From positions 53,506,001 to 53,570,000 of the forward strand of contig OZ024751.1 of assembly GCA_964016885.1 (NCBI GenBank): a stretch of 64,000 bases of DNA, written 5' to 3'. Position 1 is the first letter of the stretch, and every line of letters begins with the position of its first letter. The stretch is from Eledone cirrhosa. Its lineage: Eukaryota. Under the pieces are notes generated by a model, which searched no databases, was not told the DNA's origin, and was given only the letters and a program-made list of their open reading frames with translations. This document shows, piece by piece, positions 3,558 through 59,318 of the stretch. The translations under genes were made by a program, and so were the position numbers.

Positions 3558-3647
3558 ATGGGGTGGGGGTATATATATATATATATATGGAAAGGGACTA
3601 GTGAGGTTATGTGCCTCCATGGGGTGGGGTAAATATATATATATATA

Positions 3648-34849: not shown

Positions 34850-34971
34850 CTGGATATTGCAAAGAAGAATTTATAGATATTTAGTACTTGGTATGATAAT
34901 TTGGTGTTCTTTGGATTACATTTATGCTGAAAATTATCAGTTTGTTTGTGGAACCACAGGAAAAAATTTGC

Positions 34972-35009
<38 letters not shown>

Positions 35010-35677
35010 TGAACCTAATATGACTTTTTTTTTTTGCATCCATGTGTTTGTTTCATTTCATTTATCGACTATATATATATATACACACACACATACAAAC
35101 ACATATATATATATATAATGATGATGATGATAATGGCATATATATATATATACATACATACACCACACAGACACAAAGATATGTATGGGAATGATATTGA
35201 GAGAAAAAAATACATATTTATGCACAAATACTGGAATGTTATCAGTAAGATATCGATTGATATGTAATTTAATAATCAATATAGGATGTCATTGAATATA
35301 ATTACATAAAATCATTACAACATTTATTTGACAGCATGGTATTACATGCTTGATTTAACCTTTCCGAGAATTCTTAATTTTTTGGTGCAGAGAAATGCTA
35401 TGATCACAAAGCAGTTCATGTAGTATTATATAACCTTATTAAGTAGTTGTTAGCTCTACAAGGAAAGGAAAGGAGACAATCATCACATCAGACCAAGAAT
35501 ACAATGAATCCATTGGTTTTTCCATTGCTAATACCATCTGCTAATTGCAACTCCTGGCAGGAGGAGGTGGGATTTGAACTCAGAATACACAGATATTGCA
35601 AACCATTAAAGTAATAATGATGGTTGTAGTAATACTAATAATTCTAATGATATTATTAATGATAATAACAACAACAA

Positions 35678-35872
35678 CTTGGTGAATATGCTGTGGGACA
35701 AAGAATTAGAACATAATAGGCCTAACCTGGTGGATTTTTGACAAGGAAAAAAGATTTTGGTTGATTATATATGCAGTTTGCCTCTTTGACACAAGAGTGC
35801 AAGAAAAGAAGAAGGAGAAAATTAACCAGTACCAGGATTTAAAGTGGGAACTGAAAAGGATTTGGAACTATC
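35678..35872 (+). pseudogene. Restriction-like endonuclease fragment of an R4/Dong-type LINE
   Basis: LWD..HNRPNLV...D.RV.EK..EKI..YQDLK.ELKRIW with frameshifts. Confidence 0.6.
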
Positions 35873-36770
35873 ATGATCTAAACACTCTAACCATTAAGCC
35901 ATACACTTTAGTACTGAGGTTAATTTAATCAACTTTACCCTTTCCCTAAATTTGCTGACTTTGTAGTTAAATTAGAAATCAATACTAAGTAGTATAAGCT
36001 TTGATCTATCTTTCTATCTTTGACAACTCATGTGACATTTACATTTTCATTGCCTGTTGAGTGAACTAATCAGTTTTGGGAAACCATTACAGTGTTGTTG
36101 TATGATCTTTAACAGAATATTATTATTAATGTTTGTTACACAGTAAGACTAAATACATTTTCACCATATTAATGGGAAATACACTTTACATTTATTTTGA
36201 AATGTTGCTGATTTTTGATAAAAAAATCATTCAACTTATGGTTACAGATTTACTTGAGAGTTTTAGAACCAACTCTAAGTGTTTTAACTCTTTAGCATTT
36301 ACATTACTCTATATTTACTATTATATTTTCATGGTAAAGGCTTTACCTTATATAATTATGTGCCATAATACCGAATCTGAGATATTGATATTATTTATTT
36401 TGAGTGGTGGATTGGCAGTATCGGTAGAGGGTTGGACGCTATGCATAGAGTTAACGCCCTTGCCATTCTGAGTTCAAATCTCACTGAGGTGAACTTTACC
36501 TTTCATTCTTACGGGGTCAATAAAATAAAGTACCAGTAATGCACTGGGTAATTGCTGGCCTTGTGCCAAAAGTAGAAACAATTATTTATTTTGAGAACAA
36601 TACCCTAACATCAGTATGAGCGGCCAGTTACAGCCGGTTTGTACAGAAAGAGGTGAGAGAATTCTGGCCTGATACGTCTGGTTTAAGTGCTAAAGATATT
36701 GTGATACAACAATGATTTGAGAGAGAGTGAGGCGGGGAGTCATAGAGATAGACAGATAGCGATATATATA

Positions 36771-37588
36771 CAGGGTGCGGACGATATTTGTTCGCAATTT
36801 TCAACTGCTAATTTTATGCAAATTTTTTTTTACTTCTGTTGTCACTCTTGTCTTCATAAAAAAAACAGTGACTATATTTCCATTATTTATTTTCAGAATA
36901 ATTGATTATGAATAATTTTGAACCTCCAAATTTGTGGAAGAGACACAGAGTTCTTCTTGTAATCTGCGCCGGGAGGACAAATAAGGCCAGAAGATCAACT
37001 CCCTGAACAACAGGTGGCTCACTGTCTCATCCAAAGACGTGCCCAAAGTCATGCAGACAAAGTTTCCAGCGACAACATTGGTCTTATGTGTCGTCAGCAG
37101 TCAAGGTGACGTCATGCCACCTCACTTCTTCCCTGAGGGCCTCAAGCTGAACACCGATGGCTACATCCGCGTTCTAAGTGAGGTAGTAAAGCCCTGGATC
37201 GACCAGGTAGCTGCATGTGTGGTAGCAAGACTCAGCGCCCTGCCATACCAGCTGAAAGACCCAAGCCTGGCTGTCAGAGAACTTCGTCGACCACACTTCA
37301 CCTGACATCCCAGCTCACCTGACTGCAACCCCCTCGACTTCTTTGTGTGGGGCGCAGTGGAACGAGACACCAACAGATCTAGCTGCAATACGAAAGACGA
37401 TCTGAAGGCCAGGATCACAAGTGCCTTTGTGGCTGTCATCAAAGCCAATAGCGAGTTTATCGAGTGAGGTCGAAAGAATAAGTCATGAAGACAAACTGAC
37501 CCAAGTTTGATAAATATATCTTAAAAAATAAAACTACTGTGTTATTTTTTCCTAGACAGTAATCTTGCGAACAAATATCGTCCACACC

Positions 37589-37591
<3 letters not shown>
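36771..37591 (+). mobile_element. Internally deleted Tc1/mariner element (maT/DD37D-like)
   Basis: TIRs CAGGGTGYGGACGATATTTGTTCGCAA, TA flanks; decayed transposase TKFPA..V..VVSSQGDVMPPHFF..VVKPW..QDSAPCH..SSPDCNPLDFFVWG. Confidence 0.88.
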
Positions 37592-37631
<40 letters not shown>

Positions 37632-37640
<9 letters not shown>

Positions 37641-37800
37641 TAGCGTGGAAGATGGACGTTAAACAAAGATGATGATATATATATATATATATTGTTTTCA
37701 AATCCATATTTAATAAACTTAAATATGGATTTGAAAACAATATATATATATCATCACAATCTTTGTTTAACGTCCATCTTCCACACTAGCATATATATAT
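37632..37800. repeat. Palindrome that includes a SINE/RTE tail
   Basis: gctagcgtggaagatggacgttaaacaaagat...aaatccatattta / 7-bp spacer / mirror copy. Confidence 0.85.
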
Positions 37801-37827
37801 CGCTATCTGTCTATCTATCTATCTGTC

Positions 37828-37941
37828 TATTTATTTAGTTATGTAATAAACAACATAAGATAATTATTTAAATATCTGTCTTCAAGAAACCACTGGTAAA
37901 TGAAATAATTATCTTATGTTGTTTATAACATAACTAAACAA

Positions 37942-37945
<4 letters not shown>
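37828..37945. repeat. Short inverted repeat with a hammerhead 3' half
   Basis: tttagttatg.aataaacaacataagataattattt mirrored; right arm reads GAAA-TAATTA-TC. Confidence 0.7.
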
Positions 37946-37993
<48 letters not shown>

Positions 37994-38365
37994 AACAGTG
38001 TGGTGAGAGAGATGTACTGGACTGTAATTTTATTTATCGAATTAAAGGCAAAATTTACCTGGGCAGGATTTGAACTCTAAATGAAGAGAGCTGGAATGAA
38101 TAGGGCAAAGCAATCTATCCGACACCATAATGACTCTGCCATTTTACTGCCTGTCTATCTAATAGAGTGTTTATACTGAATTATTTTAGAGATAAAGCAT
38201 AGAAAGGCAGACATATGCTGATGATGATGATATTGGAAGTAGGAGAGATAATATACTAGCCATGACAGCACGAACCAATAACCTGATTGATTGATAGTTA
38301 ACTTATTGATTAAACTGATGTTTCTTTCTTTCTCTCATCCCTCCTTACTTTCTTTATCTATGTGT

Positions 38366-38414
<49 letters not shown>

Positions 38415-39071
38415 TATATATATACATATGTGTGTGTGTGTGTGAGTGTGTGTGCACATGTAAACATGTTTATCATTATTTGTGTGTGTATGTGTGTGTG
38501 AGTGTGTATGTGTGAGTGTCTATGTGTATGTTGAAGTGTGTATGGATGTGTGTATGTGTGCTTGTGTTTGTGTGTGTTGAAGTGTGTATGTATGTGTGTA
38601 TGTGTGTTTGTGTGTTTGTGTGTGTTGAACTGTGTATGTATGTGTGTGTGCTTGTGCTTGTTTGTGTGTATGTGTATGTGTCGCATGCTTGTGTGTGTGT
38701 TGTGTGCTTGTGTGTGCGTGTGTACAACATTGACACTGAAGCAACAATGGAGATTGGTTCTTTTGCCAAATTACCAGCGATGACGTCACATCATTCCTGT
38801 GTAGGCCGCAAGTTTAATTGAAGTTAGGCCTCCTGGTAGGCGGAGTATGTTTAAATGTGTGGGCATTTATATATATATATATATAAATCTACATATATAT
38901 ATAAATTATATATATATAAATTATATATATATAAATTATATATATATACACAAACATGTATGCATATAATATATATGTATACACAAAAATATATGCATAT
39001 AATATATATAAACACACTCACATATATAAATATAATATATATATATATGTGTGTGTATGTGTCTGTGTGTG

Positions 39072-39124
<53 letters not shown>

Positions 39125-39214
39125 TAGACAGGTAGATAAACTTTTATTATACACATCTTTTGAAGTGCGCATGTCTGTTAATGTGTTGCCTCCAGTACTT
39201 CTATAAGTATACAC

Positions 39215-40183
<969 letters not shown>

Positions 40184-40778
40184 CTGAATTTAATAAACAT
40201 TTATCGTACTGCCTCTCTGTTCTGTCCCTGTTCAATTTTTCATTATATATATATATATGTATATATGTGTATATATGTATATATATATATGTGTATATGT
40301 ATATATATATAAAAGTATATATGTGTGTGTGTGCTAAAGTCATAGAATCGTGTGTTGAAGGGTTTATGTGTTATATACACACAGATTAATGACTGTCCAC
40401 ATTGTGTGACATTTAATGAGATGAGTGTATATAAAACGTAAAACAATTAAGTATCAAAGACCCACCACTACGAAAGCAGCACACAAAAAAATCATTTCTG
40501 GAAAATTTCTAAAGAAAACAAATAAAGTTATTCACAGTTTTAAAAGGATTAACTTTAGAAAATATACAGTCAATAGATCTATGGCAACTACACACGTATA
40601 CATGTGTGTGGGGGTATATATGTATATATATATATGTGTGTGTAGCACTGAATGTCTATTGGGATGATGGAGTTTGGATATGAATGTGTGTGTTTGTATA
40701 TATATATTTATCTTTATAGTTTTACCAACTCCCTCCTCACTATTTCCACAAACACACAGCTGCATCTATATTTCTCAC

Positions 40779-40828
<50 letters not shown>

Positions 40829-41593
40829 CTTAATTACAAAGTGAGATCGATAAAAGGGAATGGAAATATTCAAAGAATGTCTGAATATCCATCCAAGAAT
40901 CAATTGGAAAGTTAGGGGGTGATTTCTAAAATGATGTTTTATATATTATATATACATATCAATAGGGTATCGATCTACACCATTATTTTTATTATTATTT
41001 ATCATCATCATCATCATTTATATATATATAGTGTAGTGAATTTCCTAAAGAATTTTATATCCAAAGCTGGCAGAACAATCAGTCCAAGGAATGAGTTGTA
41101 ATATACAAAATTTGGTTAAATTCACATTTTCATCTGTCAAATATGCACATTTTGCTGGAGAAGTTGTTCCTTCAACAGCTCATCAGTTCGACATATGTTG
41201 AACAGATGAACTGCCAAAAGGAAACCTTTCCCAGCAAAACGTATTCAACAGAGTTTTTTTTTAAACAACACCAACCTTCTCATAACTGGAAAGTTGCTGT
41301 TGTTTCAAAAGACCTTTAGTCATTGTTACATATTTGGCACCATATTCTGTAAACCTACTATGCAGTTGGCTACATAATTCACATTACCCATTATCCTTAA
41401 CTGCCTCTATTCTTGAGTGATTTGTCATATTTTATTTATTGTTTTAATAAACTATGATGATTCCTAGGGTTTGCACTGACTAACAGCGGACTGTTAAATA
41501 AGTTAATTTGCATTCTCACAGGAAGAAACAATTGTCAGTAATTAATTGAATGTCTTAAAATTGGTTAGTAACTACATCACAATTATATATATG

Positions 41594-41653
<60 letters not shown>

Positions 41654-41753
41654 AATTAAAATACTAGAGTGTGTTGGAGTTAAACACCCTCTTCATATTA
41701 TAGAAATGACAGTAAAGATATAGCTCAATGTAATTAAACAGAGCCGAAGAATT

Positions 41754-43625
41754 ATGAAAATAAACCAAAACTTAATTATGGCCATGAGAGTGTCTAGCCT
41801 TACACGATCACAGATTGATATTATACTAGCAGCCCGTAGAACTATCATCAATTTCGAGGATACATTTTGGACGCGTAAAAACACGCCCAACAATTTCGAC
41901 GTTACAATGGGTTCGAGTGATTCGGCCCAGGTAACTGATCTTATTGGGCTGTTCCTCCTAAATGAACTGTATATTACCTTTCCGCACCTTAAAGGCGGAC
42001 TTTATCGTGACGATGCATTGTTTGTGATTAACTCCAGCACCAATAACATCGAGCATAATAGGAAGAAACTTTATAAGTTTTTTAAAAGCTTTAACCTTTC
42101 GATCACAATAGATAGAAATGATAGAGCGGTCAACTTTTTAGATCTGACTTTGGACTTGGTCACTAATAGTTTTAAACCCTTCCATAAGCCTAATGAAATA
42201 CTCTCTTATGTTAGTCCCAATTCTAACCACCCCAAATCTATGATAAGCTCTATAATTAATGGTGTATCTAATAGAATTTCCACACTCTCTAAGGACATAG
42301 GAATATTTAATGCACATGCTGAGTACTATAATAATGCCCTAGCTAACTCCGGTTACTCTGGTATAATACATTATAATAATAGTAACCTTAGAAAGTCTCC
42401 GCTTACATATAATAATAATAACATAATATCCCATAATATGGCCATGAATGGGAGTAGAAAGCATAAGAATCGTAGAAATCCCATAGGTGTATCCGAACCC
42501 ATCCATAAGTTAAGACACCGGATTCGTAATAGGGAATCTAATAGTTCTAGGGATCAAGTTGGGCACTCTGAGCGCTCACTCAGTGGTAATGCTTTTGCTA
42601 AATCTAATGTTTTTACTAATTCTAATAGTATTGTTTCTACTGATCCTATTAGTAGCCCTAATCCTATTGATATGATTCCAGATAGTAGTAGATATACTAA
42701 AGGTAGAAACAGAAGGAGACTCAATGGGGTTTCGGCTGATTCTAATAATGTGGTTTCAACTAGTCCTCGTAGTAACCCAGATCTTAATAATGGGATATTA
42801 GATAACGGTAGAGTTGGTAAGGATAGAAATAGAAGGAGACTAAATACTTATTTTAACCCGCCATATGATCAGGAAGTATTAACTAACATCCCTAGGTCTT
42901 TCTTTTCTATCTTAGAGAAAAGTTTCCCTCCTACTAATAAATACCATGGTATTTTTAATAAAAATGTAATTAAACTATCATTCTCTACCACCCCTAATAT
43001 TAGTTCTCATTTAGCTAGCACTAACAATAGGAAAATTAGGGACGGCTACTCCTCTTTGCGTACTACTAGTCTGGATAGATCCATAAATGCCTTACCACTT
43101 GAGCAGACCTTATCTCATAGTAACCCTACGAGTGATGCATCACTACTTCAGCTTATCAATAGCACCCGGAAGTGTAATTGTAGAGTGAGTGTTAACTGCC
43201 CTTTAAACGGTAACTGCCTCTCTAGGAACATTGTTTATGCTTGTGTAGTTAAAACTAATTCCTCTAATAGCACATATATAGGCTCAACATCTAACACTTT
43301 TAAGACTCGGTTTAATTCTCATATCTCTTATTTTAAACATGTTAAGTTTAAGAATTCTACTTCTTTAGCACACCATATCTGGGATCTTAAGGAGGCTAAT
43401 ATACCATATAGCCTTAATTGGCGAATAGTAGCACGCTCTAATAACCTATCAACACACACTAAATTCTGTAATCTCTGTATCCTTGAGACCCACTCTATAA
43501 TTTTCTCTAGGGAACTCTTACTTAATAGAAAGTCTGAGATATTTTCTTCCTGCCCCCACGCCATTTCTAATTCTTACTTTTATTATAAACCTAAAAGTTC
43601 TGGTAGTGTAAATTGTATCCATTAG
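41754..43625 (+). CDS. Penelope-like RT (C-terminal part) plus GIY-YIG endonuclease, 623 aa, 5'-truncated
   Basis: TMGSSDSAQVTDL, LYRDD, VNFLDL, SNHP, FNPPY, CNCRVSVNC, IVY..YIG..RFNSH, CNLC..E; the first codons derive from the inverted pLTR. Confidence 0.9.
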   Translation: MKINQNLIMAMRVSSLTRSQIDIILAARRTIINFEDTFWTRKNTPNNFDVTMGSSDSAQVTDLIGLFLLNELYITFPHLKGGLYRDDALFVINSSTNNIEHNRKKLYKFFKSFNLSITIDRNDRAVNFLDLTLDLVTNSFKPFHKPNEILSYVSPNSNHPKSMISSIINGVSNRISTLSKDIGIFNAHAEYYNNALANSGYSGIIHYNNSNLRKSPLTYNNNNIISHNMAMNGSRKHKNRRNPIGVSEPIHKLRHRIRNRESNSSRDQVGHSERSLSGNAFAKSNVFTNSNSIVSTDPISSPNPIDMIPDSSRYTKGRNRRRLNGVSADSNNVVSTSPRSNPDLNNGILDNGRVGKDRNRRRLNTYFNPPYDQEVLTNIPRSFFSILEKSFPPTNKYHGIFNKNVIKLSFSTTPNISSHLASTNNRKIRDGYSSLRTTSLDRSINALPLEQTLSHSNPTSDASLLQLINSTRKCNCRVSVNCPLNGNCLSRNIVYACVVKTNSSNSTYIGSTSNTFKTRFNSHISYFKHVKFKNSTSLAHHIWDLKEANIPYSLNWRIVARSNNLSTHTKFCNLCILETHSIIFSRELLLNRKSEIFSSCPHAISNSYFYYKPKSSGSVNCIH

Positions 43626-45779
43626 CTGCTATATTCCCTTATCTTTTTTGTTTAGGTTCATTTTGTTTACCACCATCATTATCATTATTATTATTGGTTT
43701 TTAACAGCTTTTCGATTTAGCTTTCATAGTCTTTTGGCTGCCATACCATATCTATCTTCTTAAATATTATATTTTCACTATTAACACCTTATGAGTTTAT
43801 ATCTGATTATATATTTTATTTTGATTTTCATTTAGATAATTAACCCCCCCCCCCCCCCCCACACACACACTTATCATTCGCCCCTTCAATTATACTATAA
43901 TTATATTCAATTCCCTTTTATGCTCCTTTCTATTGTATTATACAGTATATTGATTATGATTTTATGCTCCTTCGTATCCTCCATACCTTTCTTTTTTCTG
44001 TTCCCATTGGCCTACCATAGTTCTATTTAAGGTCATTTTATTAGATAACGTTATTCAACTGAAAGTAGAATATTTCATTCTATCCTGGATATTTTTATTG
44101 AGATATCTTAAACTTTAGAGATTTTGATAACTTAAACCATAGCTAATTTTGTATTGACTTATTATGTATTTTAAATACTTTCAATATTAATTAATTTAAT
44201 AAGGTTTTCTAGTCATTTATCCGGGTTTGATTCCTAACTTTTTTTACTTAACTGCTTGTGACACCTAAGTAAATATATTTGTTTTTGTTTTTCGATTTCC
44301 GGTTGATTTTATTTATATTTTTTTTACTACCGTGCGTAGTTTCTGTCTGGTTCTTATTCACTTATTCACATATGTCTGTCTACCAACCATGTAATTATGT
44401 ATACTATACTATGTTTGTTATTTGATATTGAAGTTGTTATATCATATCATGTAATCGTACTATAGATCTTAAATATTTACCGATTATTCGATGTACCCTT
44501 ATGTTAAATTTTGTAAATTCTGTAATATGTTTATATTTTTATAATTTTTATAATGTTTAAATAATATTTATTTATACCAATTGTATAAAAACTCGACCTC
44601 TGTCTGTTTTGTTACAACGGTATAGATATTTTTCCAGCACAATTTTTTCAACACAATTTAGTTCTGTATGATATTTTTTCTCACCCTGTGTGTAATTTTA
44701 TATGATTTGTTAAGTTATATGCCAATATATTATAATATTGTTATTATAGTGTTATTGTAATATTTATATTGTTTGTGCAAATTGACCGGAGATTATAAAT
44801 TATATTTTTATTTTTATTCATTTCTATATCATTTTATACTGTAAATAATATATGTATTATGTTTATATTTAAACTCTTAATAAGTGTTAGTTTGTGTTTG
44901 TATTGATGGATATGTGTATTGATATATATATATATGTACATATGTATATATATATATATATGTATATTGGGCCTTTTAATATTATTATTATTATCATTAT
45001 CAATTATATTATATAATATTATATTATATTATATATCGTACTGTGGTGATATCCAATTTTAGCTGTCTAAATGCCGCTTACTTGCTGCAGTTGCTGCTTA
45101 CTTCAATGTATGAGGCTATTCCAACAAATTTACATTCCCCTTCTTTTTAGCTGTTAAAAGAAATATAGATTTTTTTTTTTGCGATTTATTAGAGAGGGGG
45201 GTGCTCCCTTCTCTTACCTGTACAAGCCGATATAGAGAGATGGCCCACGTACACGGGCCATTATTGCTACTTTCACCCATCTTTCATGGAATTGGCTGGG
45301 ACTGAGTGCCTTTTTCTCCAAGAGGACCATTTGTTGGCCGGCGACATATGCCCACAGTTTCCTCGTTGCAAACGCATCTGGGACATTTCTTTTCCAAGGG
45401 GTTTCCGTCCCGGAATCCGTGTCTGTAGAGCCTTTCCTGAACGGGCAGGGCCCCTCGGTATAATAGTAAGTATTAGTGGTTGTAATAAAAATGCAATCAA
45501 AATGTAATAAATACCTTCACTGATTTCTTCTCCACAGTAAGACAAATATCCATGTGTAGTTGAAGAGGATAAGTATGAAAGAACAGTCATTTAAATTTAC
45601 AGATGGACAGATGTGGTGTTTGGCAGGGTTTGAGATATATAGAAAAATAATTATTTACAGAAAAAGAAAATAATAATAAAGAATTATTATAATTTTTTTA
45701 AAGATTTATATCTTTTTGGACTTTTGGAAGCAAATTTTAAACTGTATATCGCAACAATAAAAAAGAAAAAAATATTTCT

Positions 45780-46766
45780 TTAAACAATATATTGTTCCGA
45801 TATACAGTTTAAAATCTTTGGGAAACATCTACCGTCTCCACTCATAAAGCTGTCATTTCGCCACCGCCACATGAATTCATTCAAATATGACAGAAACATG
45901 GGTCGGCTAGTGCCGTTTATTTATTTATTTTTTTTTTTGGCATGAGACCAGAGTCCTTCAATATGTTGGGTATGCGTTCCTGATACCGGATCGACAAAAT
46001 TTAGTGAATGATTCATTGTAGAGTGCTGATAATTAACAGGCATATATCATATGGGATTGTACGCACGCCATCGGTCTGTATGTATCATGGATCCACTCAG
46101 CACATGATTTTGTATAATGGGTAGCAGGGTCTCAGCAGTGCGATCTGGGATTTCTTGAAGAAAAATTTTTCTGGGATTATTGGTATCGATCCCACCAATG
46201 ACCCAATGGCCTTCATGCCAGGTCCCACGAGCGTACTTTCGATGAAAGTATTTACTTTCATCGATTTGTACAACTATTGGGACTCCGTCATCATCCATTC
46301 CACCTAGTTTTGATGGGTTTCGATCCACCCATTCACTGCACACGTCCCGTAATAAGTTGCACCAGTTAATAATGGTGTTTTCACTACACCGAATCTCGTC
46401 AGCAATAATAATATTTTCGAACCCAATTGACCAGAAATAAATCATATAAATCATTTGATGTAAATCTAAGTGGCCTTGAAAAAAAAATGACCCAGAACGG
46501 ACAGATTTTCTTAAATTCCATACCTTACATTTCCATCGAAATTGGTCGATTCCTTCTTTGTAACTTACAAACGAACAGGAAATATTACATGAAGGACAGT
46601 TCATAGTGTTTGAAAGTAATCGGTTCCGAGCCATAAATTCGATAATACTGAGTTTGTTTGCAGTTAAAATCGCCAGTTCCCTCATTTTCAAATCCATATT
46701 TAACGTCTGCTGTGATGAATTAACATTTTCAACAATGAAAATTGGTGCAGGTGGACGTCCAGGCAT
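45780..46766 (-). pseudogene. Merlin transposase, left (mirror) copy, same two stops
   Basis: 239-aa ORF identical to 47150-47869; the continuation mirrors the right copy. Confidence 0.9.
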
Positions 46767-47149
46767 TTTCTTTATTCAGAATTTCAGTTTAAAATCAATT
46801 AGAACTATGTTATTTCACCTTTAACAATATCTGCATTGAAATGACCGACAGGGAGCTAGTTATGCCAATTCGTGGAAAATACCCAAAGATTATGTATATT
46901 AATATAAGTTTCACTTTATTGTGGAAAATAACCCAAAATTATAAATATTAGCCCCCTGTCGGTGATTATCTTATAATTGATTTTAAACTGAAATTCATAA
47001 AGTGAAACTTATATTAATATACATAATCTTTGGGTATTTTCCACGAATTGGCATAACTAGCTCCCTGTCGGTCATTTCAATGCAGATATTGTTAAAGGTG
47101 AAATAACATAGTTCTAATTGATTTTAAACTGAAATTCTGAATAAAGAAA

Positions 47150-48136
47150 ATGCCTGGACGTCCACCTGCACCAATTTTCATTGTTGAAAATGTTAATTCA
47201 TCACAGCAGACGTTAAATATGGATTTGAAAATGAGGGAACTGGCGATTTTAACTGCAAACAAACTCAGTATTATCGAATTTATGGCTCGGAACCGATTAC
47301 TTTCAAACACTATGAACTGTCCTTCATGTAATATTTCCTGTTCGTTTGTAAGTTACAAAGAAGGAATCGACCAATTTCGATGGAAATGTAAGGTATGGAA
47401 TTTAAGAAAATCTGTCCGTTCTGGGTCATTTTTTTTTCAAGGCCACTTAGATTTACATCAAATGATTTATATGATTTATTTCTGGTCAATTGGGTTCGAA
47501 AATATTATTATTGCTGACGAGATTCGGTGTAGTGAAAACACCATTATTAACTGGTGCAACTTATTACGGGACGTGTGCAGTGAATGGGTGGATCGAAACC
47601 CATCAAAACTAGGTGGAATGGATGATGACGGAGTCCCAATAGTTGTACAAATCGATGAAAGTAAATACTTTCATCGAAAGTACGCTCGTGGGACCTGGCA
47701 TGAAGGCCATTGGGTCATTGGTGGGATCGATACCAATAATCCCAGAAAAATTTTTCTTCAAGAAATCCCAGATCGCACTGCTGAGACCCTGCTACCCATT
47801 ATACAAAATCATGTGCTGAGTGGATCCATGATACATACAGACCGATGGCGTGCGTACAATCCCATATGATATATGCCTGTTAATTATCAGCACTCTACAA
47901 TGAATCATTCACTAAATTTTGTCGATCCGGTATCAGGAACGCATACCCAACATATTGAAGGACTCTGGTCTCATGCCAAAAAAAAAAAAAAATAAATAAA
48001 CGGCACTAGCCGACCCATGTTTCTGTCATATTTGAATGAATTCATGTGGCGGTGGCGAAATGACAGCTTTATGAGTGGAGACGGTAGATGTTTCCCAAAG
48101 ATTTTAAACTGTATATCGGAACAATATATTGTTTAA
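47150..48136 (+). pseudogene. Merlin/ISXO2-type DDE transposase, right copy, two in-frame stops
   Basis: N-terminal CPSC zinc-ribbon-like motif, VQIDES, HTDRWRAY; after TGA (47867) the frame continues NHSLNFVDPVSGTHTQHIEGLW, then TAA (47993), then SYLNEFMWR. Confidence 0.9.
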
Positions 48137-49078
48137 AGAAATATTTTTTTCTTTTTTATTGTTGCGATATACAGTTTAAAATTTGCTTCCAAAAGTCCAA
48201 AAAGATATAAATCTTTAAAAAAATTATAATAATTCTTTATTATTATTTTCTTTTTCTGTAAATAATTATTTTTCTATATATCTCAAACCCTGCCAAACAC
48301 CACATCTGTCCATCTGTAAATTTAAATGACTGTTCTTTCATACTTATCCTCTTCAACTACACATGGATATTTGTCTTACTGTGGAGAAGAAATCAGTGAA
48401 GGTATTTATTACATTTTGATTGCATTTTTATTACAACCACTAATACTTACTATTATACCGAGGGGCCCTGCCCGTTCAGGAAAGGCTCTACAGACACGGA
48501 TTCCGGGACGGAAACCCCTTGGAAAAGAAATGTCCCAGATGCGTTTGCAACGAGGAAACTGTGGGCATATGTCGCCGGCCAACAAATGGTCCTCTTGGAG
48601 AAAAAGGCACTCAGTCCCAGCCAATTCCATGAAAGATGGGTGAAAGTAGCAATAATGGCCCGTGTACGTGGGCCATCTCTCTATATCGGCTTGTACAGGT
48701 AAGAGAAGAAGGGAGCACCCCCCTCTCTAATAAATCGCAAAAAAAAAAAAAAATCTATATTTCTTTTAACGGCTAAAAAGGGGGGGGGGGGTGTAAATTT
48801 GTTGGAATAGCCTCATACATTGAAGTATGCAGCAAGTAAGCGGCATTTAGACAGCTAAAATTGGATATCGCCCGTACTGTAATTCTCGCCTTGTATCACC
48901 ACTTGTGTTTAGTTTTAGTTTTTGCATTGTACTATATTTGTAATATGGGTTCAAAATGTTATTCACTTCCTTAGCAATTTTTACTTGATAATTTTCCTAT
49001 GCTTTAATGTATGTATACTCCATATTCTTCTGAGTTTTTGGCTTGTATTGGCCGATAGTGCTTCTTATAGCTTTACTT

Positions 49079-49116
49079 GCCCTGATGAGTCCTTAATAGG
49101 ACGAAACATTGTTGGC
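49079..49116 (+). ncRNA. Minimal type I hammerhead ribozyme in pLTR of element B
   Basis: GCC-CTGATGA-GTCC ttaata GGAC-GAAA-C att G-TT-GGC, followed by AATAAA at 49118. Confidence 0.85.
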
Positions 49117-49157
49117 TAATAAAGACTTTTGATGTATTGAAGGCTTCTTTGGTTTAT

Positions 49158-49196
<39 letters not shown>

Positions 49197-49494
49197 TAAT
49201 TGTTTCTACTTTTGGCACAAGGCCAGCAATTGCCCAGTGTATTACTGGTACTTTATTTTATCGACCCCGTAAGGATGAAAGGCAAAGTTAACCTCGGCGG
49301 GATTTGAACTCAGAATGGCAAGGGTGGTAACTCTATGCGTCAAAGCATGGCATCCGACCCTCTACCGATACTGCCAATAATAATAAATGTGAAGACTAAA
49401 ATCCAAAGAGGGCTCGATAAGGATAAATATATATCAAATATATAAGAATCCTAGGGTGAAAGCAGCGATTCTTTGCTTAAACTTTAATCTATTA

Positions 49495-49526
<32 letters not shown>

Positions 49527-49530
<4 letters not shown>

Positions 49531-50230
49531 TAAACGGAATAGAAAATGCTGACAAATTGTTCACAGTTGAAAAATGGTTTAATTAGGAATAAAAGAGTGT
49601 TAGTGATTGTATGGGTTAGTATTCAGTTGTGGTTTTAAGTTTTTAAGTTTTTACCGGTTGCGCATTTCTAAATGCTTTTCAAAAATAATTTTGAGATAGA
49701 GTGTCCGTGCTGTTTGCTCTGATCTGATTAGTTTTGGGAATTCTACCTGTTTTTATGTTAAAAAAATGGCTCCAGCGTTATTTTTGTGTTGTAAAAATGC
49801 TTGTGGTCAAAACAATTTTGATTGGTCGGTAGAGGTCATGTGAATGTAAAAAAAAAAAAATTTTTTTTTACATTCACATGACCTCGACCGACCAATCAAA
49901 ATTGTTTTGACCACAAGCATTTTTACAACACAAAAATAACGCTGGAGCCATTTTTTTAACATAAAAACAGGTAGAATTCCCAAAACTAATCAGATCAGAG
50001 CAAACAGCACGGACACTCTATCTCAAAATTATTTTTGAAAAGCATTTAGAAATGCGCAACCGGTAAAAACTTAAAAACTTAAAACCACAACTGAATACTA
50101 ACCCATACAATCACTAATACTCTTTTATTCCTAATTAAACCATTTTTCAACTGTGAACAATTTGTCAGCATTTTCTATTCCGTTTACCAATATATAATAA
50201 CTTGTGTGTTACACCTCTATTCTTTTAACT
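49527..50230. repeat. Spacerless palindrome with ~330-bp arms and a short tail
   Basis: Centre A-run|T-run at 49860/49861; arms nearly identical; flanked by (TA)n. Confidence 0.92.
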
Positions 50231-50244
50231 ATATATATATATAT

Positions 50245-50282
<38 letters not shown>

Positions 50283-50287
50283 TCGAT

Positions 50288-50455
50288 ATCATGTTTAATA
50301 TAGAAATGGCTTCTACGGGACTAAAACTATTTCATTCAAAAGGAAATCAGCAGGAAAGCTTTCTAGTCCTGTAGAAGCCATATCTATATTTAACATGATG
50401 ATTAGACTCTACTAATGTATTGAGTGATTACTCCAGATTGAACCCGAGACTTTCA
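50288..50455. repeat. Short inverted repeat with tail
   Basis: atcatgtttaatatagaaatggcttctacgggacta ... tagtcctgtagaagccatatctatatttaacatgat, then a ~55-bp tail, between (TA)n. Confidence 0.75.
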
Positions 50456-50470
50456 TATATATATATATAT

Positions 50471-50685
50471 ATAGGAAAATGTTTAACCCTGACGGCAGAG
50501 CTCAAGCCATTTCGACGGCTATTTCTGGACTAAATTCTGAATTTACTCCAGAAATAGCCGTCGAAACGGCTTGAGCTCTGTCGTCGGGGTTAAATATTTT
50601 CCTATTACCCACTCTACTTCCCTAAGTATTGAGTAACTCTGGTGCGTTATGGTCCATCTGGTTCCTTATCACACCTCCTTCGTTA
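50471..50685. repeat. Inverted repeat with tail carrying the 3' half of a hammerhead
   Basis: ~59-bp arms, 17-bp spacer; GAAA-CGGC ttgagctct GTCG-TC-GGGG; related fragment at 24582-24640. Confidence 0.75.
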
Positions 50686-50994
50686 TATATATATATATTG
50701 TATATATATAAGGACAAAAGAAAGAATAAATAGATAAATATGTAAATACATTAAATTGCCTGATCTAATTTGATAATTCCAGTGTTTTTTACAGATCTGG
50801 GCCATTGCTATTATATTTATGTAAGTAGCAGGAATGTAATAAATGCAATACATGTTTATTTAGAAATATATATTATTTTTGGAAAAAAATAATACTTTCA
50901 GTCTTTCATCATTTCTCTTTCAATCACTCTCTTTCCCTCTCTGTTTGTCTTTCTGCTTACCAGTCTGTCTGTATGTTTGTGTATATGCACCCAT

Positions 50995-51028
<34 letters not shown>

Positions 51029-51135
51029 CATCATCATCATCATTTTACGTCTGCTTTTCCCTGCTTGCAAGGGTGAGACGGGAACTGATTCTGGCTTGAT
51101 TTCTACAGTTGGATGCCCTTCCTAACACCAACCTC

Positions 51136-51191
<56 letters not shown>

Positions 51192-51462
51192 ATGTATATA
51201 TGTATGTATATGTATGTATATATGTATATATATATATATATATGTATCTATATATGTAAATTATATATATATATGTGTGTAAATATGTTAAATAAGTTAA
51301 CATGATGATTAGACTCTACTAATGTATTGAGTGGTAACTCCAGATTGAACCCGAGACTTTCATATATATATATATATATATATATGAAAATGTTTAACCC
51401 CGACAGCAGAGCTCAAGCCATTTCGACAGCTATTTCTGGACTAAATTCTGAATTTACTCCAG

Positions 51463-51542
<80 letters not shown>

Positions 51543-52327
51543 GTAAATTATATATATATATATATAATTTACATTCTCAAGTAGTGAAAATTAAATGTTT
51601 CCTATTCGTTTTACTATATATCTAAATGTGTGTGTATGTGTGTCTGTGTGCACGTATGTGTATGTGTATGTGTATGTGTAATCTGTTTTTATTTATTTGA
51701 TAATTTGAAGATGGGCCTATTTTTTTCTATCAATAACATGTTAAATATTTATTAAGTCTTGCATATTCCTCCTATTTCATTTTCACAAGTGCATCTTTAT
51801 TTTATTTTTTAGGGTGTTGTGGAGGGTGGTTATTAAATGAAATCTCAGAATTGTGGAAATTATCACTTAGACATTAAGTATCAACATCAAAGTCATCATT
51901 GATTAGGAGAACCAATGAGAATTTATACTATTTTGGAATCATATAACACGAATTTCCATCAAAAGTGATCAGACATACTTAGGTGTAATGTTAGTGCAGC
52001 TGTCCAATATATGACAGATATAAAGTTTAATTTCCACAGGCAATACTGTCCACATTTATCCATCTCTAAGGGTTTATATGTCTGACATATTCTATTATCT
52101 TTTATAGTCAAAAACTGTGGCAACTTACAATAAGCTCATATATTTTCAAAATTTAAATCTGCCCAACACTTCATAAAATGATTGGTTCTCTCAGTGTTTA
52201 TATATATGTGTGTGTGTGTGTGGTGTATGGTGTGTATGTGAGTATATATATATATATGTGTGTGTGTTGTGTATGGTGTGTATGTGAGTATATATATGTG
52301 TGTGTGTTGTGTATGGTGTGTATGTGA

Positions 52328-52393
<66 letters not shown>

Positions 52394-53952
52394 GTGTGTG
52401 TGTGTGTATGGTATACGTCTAACCTTTGTAACCAAAGCTATTGATAATTACTTCCTGTTTCACTGCCTGCAGTTCAACCTATATTTAATCACTATGGCAA
52501 CATCATCAAACCTTTTCGTTTTAAAATATCTTCCTTTTCTCCAAGTACAATCTAACCTTTTGGTTCAGTCACATGTAGTAATCTTCTGCTTCCATTTGAG
52601 TGAAATCCCACGATGGGATTCAAAGCAGTGGCAAGATTTATATATAGTTGATCTTCCATCGTCTACAACATTGAACACCCACTTGTTCAGTCAACTGAAA
52701 ATTTAACTCATAAATTAACATGAATGTCGTTGAGTATTCAACAGACATGTTTGCCTCTATTGTAATTCTCAAACCAAATTAGTGTGACATAATATATGAC
52801 AAGGCTGGGCCTTTGAATTATATGTACAATCTATTTGATGGGCTTCCTCAAAATTTCACTCACAAGGCTTAGGCCAATCTGAGGCTAAAAATAACATTTG
52901 CCCAGTGTTACCAAGGTTTGAGTCCAGAATCACCTGTTTGTAAGGCAAACTGTTTAACCATTTGGTCATGTCTGTGTCCACTGTGTCCACAAAGTGTTAT
53001 ATATAACGCCAAAATAATTTCACAAATTTAAACATTTACATAAATTTCTTTTTCTCTATTCAAGCTAATTTTTTATTATTATTTGAGAATATAAAGGGCG
53101 GTGGATTGACAGTATCAGTAAAGGGTCGGACACCATGCTTTCCAGCATAGTTACGTCCCTTTACGATCTGAGTTCAAATCCCGCCGAGGTTGACTTTGCC
53201 TTTCATCCTTACGGGGTCGATAAAATAAAGTACCAGTAATGCACTGGGTAATTGCTGGCTTTGTGCCTAAAGTAGAAACAATTATTTGAGAATATAGAAA
53301 TAATGAAATTATTATTTGAGGTAGTTGCAACCATATTTCAATGTATATAATTCAACATTTCTTCCTTTGCAGTCTTCTTTTCACTAACACTCCAATTGAA
53401 TATATGACAATCTTTTCTACCATAACAGAACATACCAAAATTTGTCATATAATTTCTGGGAATCTTTCGATTGTAAAAGCTTTATTGTGATTGGTATATT
53501 TCTTTAACTTTCATGAAAGAGAGAGCAACATATTAAAAATAAATGAAATTAAAATTTAACTGCAGAATCACATTTAATCTATTTCATATTTATTTCTTAG
53601 TATTTAAGATAATAAAAATCCTAGAATTATATTTTTGATTAGAATTCTGTAGTTTATAAAAAAATGTATAATAATAAAGACGAAGTAAACTAAATACAAT
53701 TCCACATTGACTTTTACATGAGATTATTTTTACAACAAAATAGCAAAATTTTAAATAGATTAACTCTGCTGTCCTCTCACAAAAATTAAATGAATGGACC
53801 AATCAGAATGAAGTCTACTTGTTTAGGTATATCTTATTCTGATCTTCTTTGTAATTTCCATTTAAATAATTCCATATACATACACACCATTATAACTACA
53901 TATATACATCCATATATATACATACAAACATACACACACACATATATATATA

Positions 53953-54359
53953 CGAGGGCAATCCCAAAAGTAAGGTCTCCTTTTGATATTGCAACTTCCG
54001 ATATTGCAACTTTTCCATTAAAATCCTGTGGATGGTACTTCGGGAAACCTCAGGGACCAAAATGCAGAGAGCATCCAGAGTGATCCGCCAATCTTTACGC
54101 ATATTTTCCTCGGAAGGAGACCTTACTTTTGGGTTTGCCCTCGTATTAATAACTGCGCAAAATTCGTACTTGGCGGTAGCGTTCAATGGGAGCTCCATTC
54201 TCAATGGCTGCCAAGCCAAGATTGAGCATCCCAGCAAAGCGCGCGCATGCTTGTTTGGGAGTGAAGGAAGCACCAATCACAACAGTATTGCCAACAGCCA
54301 TACGAACAGTTTCTCTGCGTCCCCATCGCTTTGGAGACCTTACTTTTGGGATTACCCTC

Positions 54360-54360
<1 letters not shown>
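53953..54360. mobile_element. mariner-type MITE with one left and two right TIRs
   Basis: TA-CGAGGGCAATCCCAAAAGTAAGGTCTCC at 53953; inverted copies end at ~54143 and 54360, each followed by TA. Confidence 0.82.
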
Positions 54361-54404
<44 letters not shown>

Positions 54405-54459
54405 CACACACATAAATATATATACATATATACATAAATATATATATACACACATATAC

Positions 54460-54491
<32 letters not shown>

Positions 54492-54874
54492 GTATATATA
54501 TATACCAATGAAATCATATCCACTCTCTTGCTCTGGAACCCTGACTCCAGCCTGACTAAGAGTAGGAGGCTGTCATTCCCTTACGTTATCTCTAGGGATA
54601 CGGGAATCAGTAGACAGGACCTGGGGGACAGGGAATTCTGGGGCATGAGAGTGAGATCCATCATCTCGACAGTAGTCGACGAATGATGATGATGATATAT
54701 ATATACACATATATATACATATATATATATATACATATATATATATACATATATATACATACATATATATATATACACATATATATATATAAATATATAC
54801 ATATCTATATATATATACATATATACATATATATATATATATGTATACATATATACATATATATATATACATAT

Positions 54875-55223
54875 GGAGGCAGATGGCTTAGTGGTTAGAG
54901 CATTGGCCTTGCAATCGAAAGGTTGTGAGTTCAATTCTCAGACCGGGTGATGTGTTGTTTCCTTGAGCAAGACACTTTATTTCACATTGCTCCAGTTTAC
55001 TCAGCTGTAGAAATGAGATGATAGGGATTGGGGTCCATATCATTCCACTGCAACGTGGTCGTGGAGGTGTCACGGCAAAAAAAGCACCCAGCACTCACTG
55101 TAAATGAGGTTGGTGTTAGGAAGGGCATCCAGCTGTAGAAATCAAGCCAGAATCACTTCCCGTCCCACCCTTGCAAGCAGGGAAAAGTGGACGTAAAATG
55201 ATGATGATGATGATGATGATGAT
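54875..55223 (+). mobile_element. SINE family 1
   Basis: Full-length copy. Confidence 0.85.
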
Positions 55224-55314
55224 ATATACATATATATATATATATATACATATATACATATATATACATATATATACATACATATATATATATACATATA
55301 TATACATACATGTA

Positions 55315-55486
55315 GGGGCTCCCACACTAGAAGAGGAAGACCAAGGTTAACGTATGTTGATGCCCTAAGGACAGACACTGGTCTGTTGGAGATGCAGGAC
55401 ATGGCAGCGATAATGAGGGACAGAGACCGCTGGAGAGAACTCGTCCATGGATCTCGGGAATTTTACCCGCCTTAGATAGATAGATA
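55315..55486 (+). mobile_element. RTE-type LINE 3' end
   Basis: RRGRPRLTYVDALRTDTG...MRDRDRWRELV plus (TAGA)n tail; other probable RTE ends at 54510-54695 and 63115-63238. Confidence 0.72.
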
Positions 55487-55698
55487 TACATACATATATA
55501 TACATATATACTCTTTTACTCTTTTACTCTTTTACCTGTTTCAGCCATCCGGCTGAGGCCATGCTGGGGCACCGCCCTATATATATACATATATACATAC
55601 ATATATATATATACATATATATACATACATATATATATATACATATATATATACATACATATATATATATATACATACATATATATATATATACATAC

Positions 55699-55729
<31 letters not shown>

Positions 55730-55753
55730 CATATATATATACATACATATATA

Positions 55754-55805
<52 letters not shown>

Positions 55806-55845
55806 CATATATATACATACATATATATATATATATACATACATA

Positions 55846-55897
<52 letters not shown>

Positions 55898-55940
55898 CAT
55901 ATATATACATACATATATATACATACACTTATATATATAT

Positions 55941-55971
<31 letters not shown>

Positions 55972-56221
55972 CATACATACACACATATATATACAGTTTT
56001 CTAAGCCATTTGGGATGTTGACTACTTTCATATACAATATTCTTTTCATATTTTGTCAATATTTAAAGAAGAAAAAGAAAAATATCTACTTTTATTTTAT
56101 AACCACCAATACGTGTAGTAATTGTTGTTGGTTTGGTTCTTTTGGTTGTTGTTGTTGTTAATGTTCAGTCCTAATTGAGAAAGGACCAAAGATCAAAGCT
56201 AAAAGGTGGCCCATAAATGGA

Positions 56222-56432
56222 TTTACCATTTATAAATTTAATAACATGTTTTTTAACAATAATTTATTTTAAATTTTAATTTCAAGTTTTGAAAATATGT
56301 TACTAGGAAGTTTTCCACAATAAAAATTTATCATGGAAAATTTCCCATGTAAAATATTTTCAAAATCTGAAATCAAAATGAAAAATATATTATTGTAAAA
56401 AAAAAGTTATTAAATTTTAAAATAGTAAAACT
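56222..56432. repeat. AT-rich imperfect fold-back, probable old MITE
   Basis: tttaccattt..aaatttaataac / gttattaaattt..aaatagtaaa, with inner ttttgaaaatat / atattttcaaaa. Confidence 0.55.
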
Positions 56433-56619
56433 ATTTAATGTAATTTCATATGGGAATATGTATACAAGCAAAGGTGTGTTAAGGAGGTAAGAAGCTTGTG
56501 GTTTTTAGTGCATTCAATAGTGCCATACAAAACAATGAACAAGTATCTTTTACATTAGCATAATTCACCAAATTACTGTTAGTGGAGCTTAATAGCAGTG
56601 AAAGTGTTTTACAAGACCT

Positions 56620-56700
<81 letters not shown>

Positions 56701-56722
56701 CATATATATATACATATATATA

Positions 56723-56880
56723 CAGTGAGATTCCGTTATAAGGAAATTCATGGGGTATAAAAAAATTTTCGTTTTAACAAAAAATTCTTTATAACGAGAT
56801 CGACCAAAATTCATCAAGCTTGTGGCCATTTTACTGAAAAATTTGTTATAATGGTATTTGTTATAACAGAATTTTACCTG
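56723..56880. mobile_element. pogo/Tigger-like MITE
   Basis: TA-CAGTGAGATTCCGTTATAA ... TTATAACAGAATTTTACCTG-TA imperfect TIRs, internal GTTATAA subrepeats. Confidence 0.6.
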
Positions 56881-57034
56881 TATATTCATTATTTAATGTC
56901 TACTTTCCCTGCTAGCAAAGATTGGACAGGTCTACATAAACCAAGTCAATACTGAAAAGGGGCTACTGATATATATTTCTGACATATTTCATTGCATGAG
57001 GGATGGGAGAGTGATGTGGACAATAGCTACTTAC

Positions 57035-58843: not shown

Positions 58844-58965
58844 GGTAAACATTGATGCAATTCAATTCAAGCACTCAATGTACTTTTCCACATAGGAGTG
58901 ACGGAGTAAATATCGAATAAGGAAAAGCGAAGTAGTTTCAGATGTTCAAGTCCTTTAATAATAAT

Positions 58966-59039
58966 GCTGTGATATATATTTCAATGACGACACTGGCACC
59001 ACTGTTCTGTGTGCGAGTGTCGTGACATCATCAGACAGC
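58966..59039 (-). ncRNA. Hammerhead ribozyme, left (mirror) arm of palindrome
   Basis: Reverse complement of 59182-59255 with one substitution. Confidence 0.68.
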
Positions 59040-59181
59040 TTGTTACATAATAAGGTTGTTTCCGAGGCAATCCAAATTGAATCGACATGGGAACGGATGA
59101 AGTTCGTGCTTTTGGGTTTTTCATCCGTTCCCATGTCGATTCAATTTGGATTGCCTCGGAAACAACCTTATTATGTAACAA

Positions 59182-59255
59182 GCTGTCTGATGATGACACG
59201 ACACTCGCACACAGAACAGTGGTGCCAGTGTCGTCATTGAAATATATATCACAGC
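59182..59255 (+). ncRNA. Hammerhead ribozyme, right arm of palindrome
   Basis: GCTGT-CTGATGA-long stem II (ACGACACT/AGTGTCGT)-GAAA-TATATA-TC-ACAGC; base of stem II imperfect. Confidence 0.7.
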
Positions 59256-59278
59256 ATTATTATTAAAGGACTTGAACA

Positions 59279-59280
<2 letters not shown>

Positions 59281-59318
<38 letters not shown>

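What the first reader, a model, noticed from the sequence alone, without database searches (positions are those of the whole stretch)
45045..48872. Candidate 'Mu killer'-like hairpin silencer transcribed from a host intron
Seen: the palindrome lies in the 22-kb intron (34850-57034) of the convertase gene and in the 3' UTR of an opposite-strand Penelope element. Read-through from either strand could fold into a ~1.9-kb near-perfect dsRNA covering the entire transposase. Known: maize Mu killer is an inverted duplication of a defective MuDR whose read-through hairpin silences the family in trans; long dsRNA is a Dicer and ADAR substrate, and coleoid cephalopods edit RNA heavily. Inference: this locus may produce endo-siRNAs against active Merlins, or be hyper-edited, in convertase-expressing cells.
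Basis: inference. Interest (0 to 1): 0.72.

Follow-up and report, generated by a model that had tools for sequence, protein, structure and literature searches.

The report
Mirror-doubled dead Merlin transposon in intron
A 3.8-kb jumping gene inside an intron of an octopus-type hormone-processing gene is a real mirror-image double of one broken transposase gene; its RNA would fold into a 1.9-kb hairpin that is likely edited and discarded rather than used to silence relatives, because molluscs appear to lack the machinery that maize's Mu killer relies on.

Summary
Window 45045-48872 is one Merlin (IS1595-type) element: GG...CC ends, an 8-bp target duplication (CGTACTGT), arms of 1875 and 1876 nt around a 77-nt spacer. 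It lies in a 22,185-nt intron of a PC1/3-like convertase gene and in the tail of a 5'-truncated Penelope. Both head-to-head transposase copies carry the same two stops and the same 12 changes that other family copies lack. The inner 1712 nt differ at one site, the outer 166 nt at six events. So one arm was likely copied recently from the other in an already dead element (Galileo-type TIR extension). The pre-mRNA strand is predicted to form 1859 arm-to-arm pairs. No RNA data were available, so neither editing nor small RNAs was tested. A published survey finds no siRNA-type Dicer or Argonaute and no endo-siRNAs in molluscs, Octopus bimaculoides included. ADAR editing followed by decay with the intron is therefore the likeliest fate. 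A second TSD-bounded Merlin dimer (L074) shows that such doubles recur. Verdict: a modest structural variant; Mu-killer-like function about 8%.

The parts
45037..45044 (.). Left copy of the 8-bp target site duplication CGTACTGT
45045..45210 (.). Outer zone of the left arm, starts GG; differs from the right end by 6 events; likely the original left terminal inverted repeat region (inferred)
   Evidence: left-type variants also seen in other copies
45045..46919 (-). Left arm (1875 nt): inverted copy of 5' region, transposase and 3' region
45780..46766 (-). Left transposase pseudogene, stops at codons 240 and 282
46920..46996 (.). 77-nt spacer made of three diverged pieces of the element's own 5' repeat unit, the first facing left and the other two facing right
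46997..48872 (+). Right arm (1876 nt), ends CC
   Evidence: other copies end at 48872 too
47150..48136 (+). Right transposase pseudogene, 328 codons, DDE_Tnp_IS1595 (PF12762); D169, D231, E271; stops at 47867 (codon 240) and 47993 (codon 282)
48873..48880 (.). Right copy of the 8-bp target site duplication
41724..43625 (+). 5'-truncated Penelope-like RT plus GIY-YIG frame; host element of the insertion
   Evidence: (GIY-YIG below cut-off)
49066..49136 (+). Minimal hammerhead ribozyme motif in the Penelope tail beyond the insertion
   Evidence: RF02275, E 5.8e-5, 29 bits, below the gathering score of 52
34850..57034 (-). 22,185-nt GT-AG intron of the PC1/3-like convertase gene

Best explanation
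This is a single, dead Merlin transposon bounded by an 8-bp target duplication whose left half was likely overwritten by an inverted copy of its own right half, and whose RNA would fold into a 1.9-kb hairpin in the convertase pre-mRNA that is likely A-to-I edited and degraded with the intron, without silencing other Merlins. Steps. (1) Shown: one element with one TSD sits in a Penelope tail within the intron. (2) Shown: both transposase copies share two stops and 12 changes absent from other copies, so the doubling or its homogenisation came after the decay. (3) Inferred: a break in the left half was repaired from the right half, using the terminal repeats as outer homology and a short inverted repeat of the 5' region as inner homology, as proposed for Galileo '2RT' copies. 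Whether this happened here or just before a last jump cannot be told. (4) Inferred: RNA polymerase II crosses the element whenever the convertase gene is on. (5) Predicted: the hairpin forms. (6) Inferred from literature: ADAR rather than an siRNA pathway handles it.
For: TSD and GG ends. Arm differences: 6 of 7 events fall in the outer 166 of 1878 nt, binomial P about 3e-6 (zones drawn after seeing the data). In 892 nt covered by two contigs of run X1, 12 sites differ from the window, all 12 are the same in both arms, and 10 of 12 are C>T or G>A in the window copy (3 at CpG). X5 reads the same other letter at 12 of 12 sites and X4 at the 7 of 7 it covers, so the window's letters are the derived ones. 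The upper 95% bound on per-arm divergence is 12% of the shared decay. One X4 contig joins 47047 to 46945 on opposite strands, i.e. the same central inversion with 75 nt less, while its inverted piece spans only 47047-47110 by the binned depths: a short 5' inverted repeat exists in another copy. Left-arm-type end variants (3 nt shorter at 48704; the longer form before 48830) occur in other copies. Galileo model: PMC3573991. Lack of siRNA machinery, and editing suggested as the fate of inverted-repeat dsRNA: PMC12479628. Repeat-directed intronic editing in coleoids: PMC9068888.
Against: No intact single-arm parent was seen end to end; no laid piece spans the stretch. The place of 168 unaligned letters in the X4 contig is unknown, so my reading of it is partly inferred. 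Which end variants belong to left or right ends of ordinary copies was not established. Nothing on transcription, folding in vivo or editing was measured. The outer zone is about one short-read length, so assembly polishing could in principle give a similar pattern.
Confidence: 0.62

Rival explanations
1. The palindrome is a mobile non-autonomous fold-back subfamily, or a composite of two 3' ends made by aberrant (sister-chromatid or self-insertion) transposition, that jumped here already doubled.
For: The TSD encloses the whole double. L074 is a Merlin inverted dimer enclosed by one 8-bp TSD, with a complete terminal repeat joined to the inside of the second copy, which looks like a transposase-made joint; it is 1 of 8 fetched loci of its family.
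Against: No terminal repeat lies at the window's centre. Sister ends should be alike in the outer 166 nt, yet that is where the arms differ. Spacer positions 46920-46965 are not covered in X1, the spacer bin has no depth in X5, and the laid X1 and X5 contigs read other letters at the 12 private sites, so no spread of this form was seen (contigs show presence, not absence).
Confidence: 0.2
2. One reading: the hairpin is diced into small RNAs that repress intact Merlins in trans, as Mu killer does.
For: Near-perfect 1.9-kb stem over the whole transposase. A target exists: a copy 1.3% apart reads a sense codon at the first stop. AATAAA signals on the minus strand in the left arm's 3' region (e.g. 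45190) could give a polyadenylated hairpin. Mouse oocytes dice long dsRNA with a miRNA-type Dicer isoform (passage in PMC12479628).
Against: No siDicer or siAgo in 35 mollusc genomes, and siRNA-like read pairs at least fivefold below siRNA-making species, O. bimaculoides included (PMC12479628). Silencing a DNA transposon matters in the germ line, whereas PC1/3 convertases are typically neuroendocrine (recalled). Head-to-head layout means the element's own 5' regions would read outward and make no hairpin. The Penelope lacks its 5' end.
Confidence: 0.08
3. The doubling is an assembly artefact: an ordinary Merlin with long end repeats and a 5' inverted repeat was traversed twice, or its arms were made identical by polishing.
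For: Inner arms are almost identical (1 of 1712), the differing zone is about a read length, and no laid record bridges the window's exact centre.
Against: Flanks are different and joined by a TSD, not mirrored. The window has no N and carries kilobase microsatellites, which suggests long reads (inference). Both arms carry private changes rather than the family's letters. A related central inversion is in an independent contig.
Confidence: 0.08

Closest known systems
Merlin superfamily / IS1595 family (PMC8101967, passages read)
   Same: GG ends, 8-bp TSD, DDE_Tnp_IS1595 transposase, internal tandem repeats; the Symbiodinium family Sy.m_F1 also has a 5' repeat region duplicated in opposite orientation.
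   Different: Published TIRs are 24-462 bp around one gene; here the inverted repeat is 1.88 kb and includes the whole transposase twice, both dead.
Galileo '2RT' copies of Drosophila mojavensis (PMC3573991, passages read)
   Same: Inverted repeat lengthened by copying internal sequence from one end to the other; non-autonomous product.
   Different: P superfamily; recruited parts were the non-coding spacers (longest TIR 1,260 bp), and the longest-TIR copies lacked the transposase frame. Here the whole coding region was recruited.
Mu killer and 'Ac killers' of maize (PMC3440606 and bioRxiv 10.1101/2020.01.07.897926, passages read)
   Same: Natural inverted duplication of defective DNA-transposon sequence placed for read-in from a host gene.
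   Different: They duplicate 5' terminal parts with 5' TIRs outside, and are defined by siRNA production and heritable trans-silencing in a plant with RNA-directed methylation. Here the 3' parts face outward, no silencing is shown, and the host clade reportedly lacks endo-siRNAs. PMC3440606 also disputes the read-through hairpin model for Mu killer itself.
Intronic inverted repeats edited by ADAR (coleoid ubiquitous editing, PMC9068888; Alu pairs recalled)
   Same: Long intramolecular dsRNA from repeats in pre-mRNA.
   Different: The stem here is far longer and nearly perfect.

Membership tests
Merlin superfamily | Terminal 5'-GG-3' inverted ends | tested here: met
   GGTGATATCC... / ...GGATATCGCC; criterion from PMC8101967
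Merlin superfamily | 8- or 9-bp target site duplication | tested here: met
   CGTACTGT on both sides
Merlin superfamily | DDE_Tnp_IS1595 transposase with D, D, E | tested here: met
   PF12762 E 6.6e-19, 68.9 bits against cut-off 27 when read through the stops as X; D169, D231, E271 motifs
Merlin superfamily (autonomous element) | One intact transposase frame between TIRs of 24-462 bp | tested here: not met
   Two copies, each with stops at codons 240 and 282; the first stop precedes the catalytic E. It is a non-autonomous derivative.
Mu killer / Ac killer type silencer | Natural inverted duplication of transposon sequence | tested here: met
Mu killer / Ac killer type silencer | Duplication of the 5' terminal part with 5' TIRs outermost | tested here: not met
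   Transposases point outward from the centre, 3' regions outermost; contrast
Mu killer / Ac killer type silencer | Transcribed through both arms into dsRNA | tested here: inconclusive
   Position in a convertase intron and folding make it likely; not measured
Mu killer / Ac killer type silencer | 21-, 22- and 24-nt siRNAs from the arms | not testable with these tools
   No small-RNA data at hand; literature argues against the pathway in molluscs
Mu killer / Ac killer type silencer | Heritable silencing of active elements in trans | not testable with these tools
   Needs crosses or carrier/non-carrier comparison
Galileo 2RT-like extended-TIR derivative (works like) | Inverted repeat extended inward by sequence copied from the other end | tested here: inconclusive
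   Outer-versus-inner divergence pattern and shared private changes fit; an intact parent was not seen

The most novel reading that the evidence does not exclude
Merlin elements repeatedly throw off TSD-bounded mirror doubles (this one head-to-head, L074 tail-to-tail), and when one lands in a transcribed intron its 1.9-kb hairpin, perhaps polyadenylated at the left arm's own signal, is cut by the single mollusc Dicer or fed to Piwi. That would make it the first natural transposon-killer allele in a lineage thought to have no endo-siRNA pathway.
Probability: 0.08. Interest if true: 0.72.

Novelty: new variant of a known kind. Interest (0 to 1): 0.27.

Why it matters
As it stands it extends TIR-lengthening by conversion, described for Galileo, to a Merlin, with the whole transposase recruited. 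With L074 it shows that mirror-doubled Merlins arise more than once. I found no description of such a Merlin in three searches (listings, plus passages of PMC8101967), which cover only open-licence papers. Its practical value is as a natural probe: a single-locus, nearly perfect 1.9-kb stem with private marker changes would show directly what an octopus cell does with long dsRNA (editing, dicing or neither), a point PMC12479628 calls open. If it did silence, it would overturn the view that molluscs make no endo-siRNAs.

Tried and rejected
Whole-genome search for other copies: no genome is held for this window, so copy number is unknown. Run search: no RNA holder listed; no inference drawn on expression. 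The A>G and T>C excess in the laid records is not editing: the RAD-seq DNA run X7 shows it too (A>G 15, T>C 20), and it mirrors the window copy's own C>T and G>A changes. RAD reads were too thin over the centre to test the junction (depth under 1). Summed contig depths were not used as copy numbers. Head-to-head doubles among relatives: 0 of 80 metagenome loci (48 of 80 had 1 kb or more upstream); 2 of 80 had an opposite-strand transposase, both tail-to-tail (L074; L021 only 65% alike, probably two unrelated insertions). Two-gene mirror-symmetric parent (lead from e1-7496576): 2 of 48 loci had a short upstream hairpin and neither had a divergent frame of 100 aa or more; these loci are distant relatives, so the idea stays open. 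Penelope-driven read-through: rejected as unsupported because the element lacks its 5' part. The 100-105-aa frames in the 3' region were not searched. Rfam at gathering level found only two tRNA-like matches outside the feature; weak miRNA-family matches at 48096-48185 are far below gathering scores and reflect an AT-rich hairpin. The representative-protein search was still queued and was not collected. Look-ups of earlier findings by sequence and place gave nothing.

Full report
Observation. The inverted repeat is real in the sequence given. Arms 45045-46919 and 46997-48872 align with 26 differing columns of 1885; 25 lie in the outer 166 nt (six events) and one in the inner 1712 nt. The unit begins GG, ends CC and is enclosed by CGTACTGT on both sides, an 8-mer found only at these two places in the window. 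Other copies laid also stop matching at 48872 (two X4 contigs with other flanks). These are the Merlin hallmarks given in PMC8101967 (passages). The frame 47150-48136 and its mirror match PF12762; the best of six relatives found is 61% identical over about half the query. The genes point outward from the centre. Each has stops at codons 240 and 282, the first before the catalytic glutamate.

Setting. A tblastn with an O. vulgaris neuroendocrine convertase 1-like protein maps ten exons on the minus strand at 62-94% identity and places the element in a 22,185-nt GT-AG intron, 57034 to 34850. I infer an octopod host from this likeness. The element interrupts the tail of a plus-strand Penelope whose frame (41724-43625) lacks the start of the RT: likeness to the window's second Penelope begins at 41760, just after a (TA)n run. 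A minimal hammerhead motif lies beyond the insertion. So only the convertase strand has an evident promoter. The intron is rich in other hairpin formers: a 676-nt 98.8% fold-back at 49521-50196, smaller ones at 50474-50602, 37639-37790 and 37835-37937, and inverted pairs of dispersed repeats.

Other copies. No genome is held, so I laid four of nine listed runs (X1, X4, X7 of organism A; X5 of organism B) on spacer, right arm and right flank. Two X1 contigs cover 47061-47952 and differ from the window at 12 sites. Both arms carry the window's letter at all 12; X5 agrees with X1 at 12 of 12 and X4 at the 7 it covers. The window's letters are therefore derived: 10 are C>T or G>A, eight change a codon's meaning, and one of these makes the first stop. 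The copy decayed by about 1.3% first, and the arms were made or homogenised afterwards; the per-arm divergence is at most about 12% of the shared decay. The table showed only the 40 best-supported differences (158 hidden), but the contigs' own counts (5 and 7) match these 12. An X1 contig joins 47115 back to 46966, a tandem unit of about 150 nt in the 5' region. An X4 contig joins 47047 to 46945 on opposite strands, which equals the window's centre with 75 nt missing; by the binned depths its inverted piece spans only 47047-47110, and it then runs on into the transposase. I read this as an ordinary copy with a short 5' inverted repeat, though 168 of its letters are unplaced. End variants of the left-arm type occur in other copies. 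Positions 46920-46965 are uncovered in X1, and the spacer bin has no depth in X5; contigs show presence only, so this is weak evidence that the palindrome is local.

Origin. The pattern of divergent outer ends, identical interior, no terminal repeat at the centre and a pre-existing 5' inverted repeat fits repair of the left half from the right half between two homologies. PMC3573991 proposes this route for Galileo '2RT' copies (passages). Aberrant transposition is the main rival. Among 80 distant Merlin-like loci, none is head-to-head, but L074 is a tail-to-tail dimer, 99% over 1664 nt, enclosed by one 8-bp TSD, with a full terminal repeat at its inner joint; it is 1 of 8 fetched loci of that family. 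Doubled Merlins therefore recur, apparently by more than one route. An assembly artefact cannot be excluded without long reads, but the unmirrored flanks, the TSD and the private changes argue against it.

Function. The pre-mRNA strand folds in silico into 1859 arm-to-arm pairs with 1182 adenosines in the arms. Nothing about its RNA was measured. [quoted passage not shown] PMC12479628 (passages and section 19) found miRNA and piRNA factors but no siRNA-type Dicer or Argonaute in 35 mollusc genomes, and siRNA-like read pairs at least fivefold below siRNA-making species, O. bimaculoides arm tissue included. It suggests editing as the fate of inverted-repeat dsRNA, while allowing rare cell types as exceptions. 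PMC9068888 (passages) reports that ubiquitous edits in squid fall mainly in 3' UTRs and introns over repeats. Editing and turnover with the intron is thus the likeliest fate. No supplements were read; those of PMC8101967 (family structures) could bear on whether doubled Merlins were already noted.

Verdict. A real, young mirror double of a dead Merlin: a new variant of known fold-back and extended-TIR derivatives. Earlier notes of this scan list 13 findings holding the words of a Mu-killer-type query, and none of the eight shown reports silencing (unchecked AI notes, not support). Interest 0.27; the silencer case has about 8% probability and would merit about 0.7.

Noticed in passing
L074:5586-9122: Merlin inverted dimer, tail-to-tail (Mu-killer orientation): a full element with 113-bp TIRs joined to an inverted copy lacking its last 217 nt, the whole enclosed by the 8-bp TSD CCAGCTTC; arms 99% alike.
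   Followed up: partly
window 49521-50196: 676-nt fold-back element, 4 mismatches in 338 positions, with an A-run/T-run tip, set in a (TA)n tract 650 nt from the Merlin, in the same intron.
   Followed up: partly
window 49066-49136 (+): Minimal type I hammerhead motif in the Penelope tail (short stem III, GUU cleavage triplet by my reading); the deepest-covered part of the laid stretch in the three organism A runs and nearly absent in X5.
   Followed up: partly
window 47150-47420 (+): N-terminal CxxC...CxxW motif; other copies read C at the last position, giving a four-cysteine zinc-ribbon-like motif (weak PF12760 match, E 0.11, below cut-off). PMC8101967 states that described Merlins lack this domain.
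   Followed up: partly
window 48420-48720: The GC-rich part of the element's 3' region shares short blocks (48456-48499, 48630-48665) with very abundant other repeats in organisms A and B; a 32-nt insert at 48596 is common in other copies and absent from both arms.
   Followed up: no
window 48101-48182 and mirror 45734-45815: An 82-nt AT-rich hairpin overlaps the transposase stop codon.
   Followed up: no
window 3633-5232 (+): A second, frameshifted Penelope-like element (40-46% amino-acid identity to the first) in another intron of the convertase gene.
   Followed up: partly
window 58940-59281, 2321-2602, 50474-50602: Further hairpin-shaped elements (342, 282 and 129 nt), probably miniature transposons.
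   Followed up: no
L067:5244-5541: Merlin copy with a tandemly doubled left end (about 196-nt repeat), the TSD lying outside the outer end.
   Followed up: no
L021: Two convergent Merlin-like transposases only 65% alike in DNA on a 2.1-kb contig.
   Followed up: no
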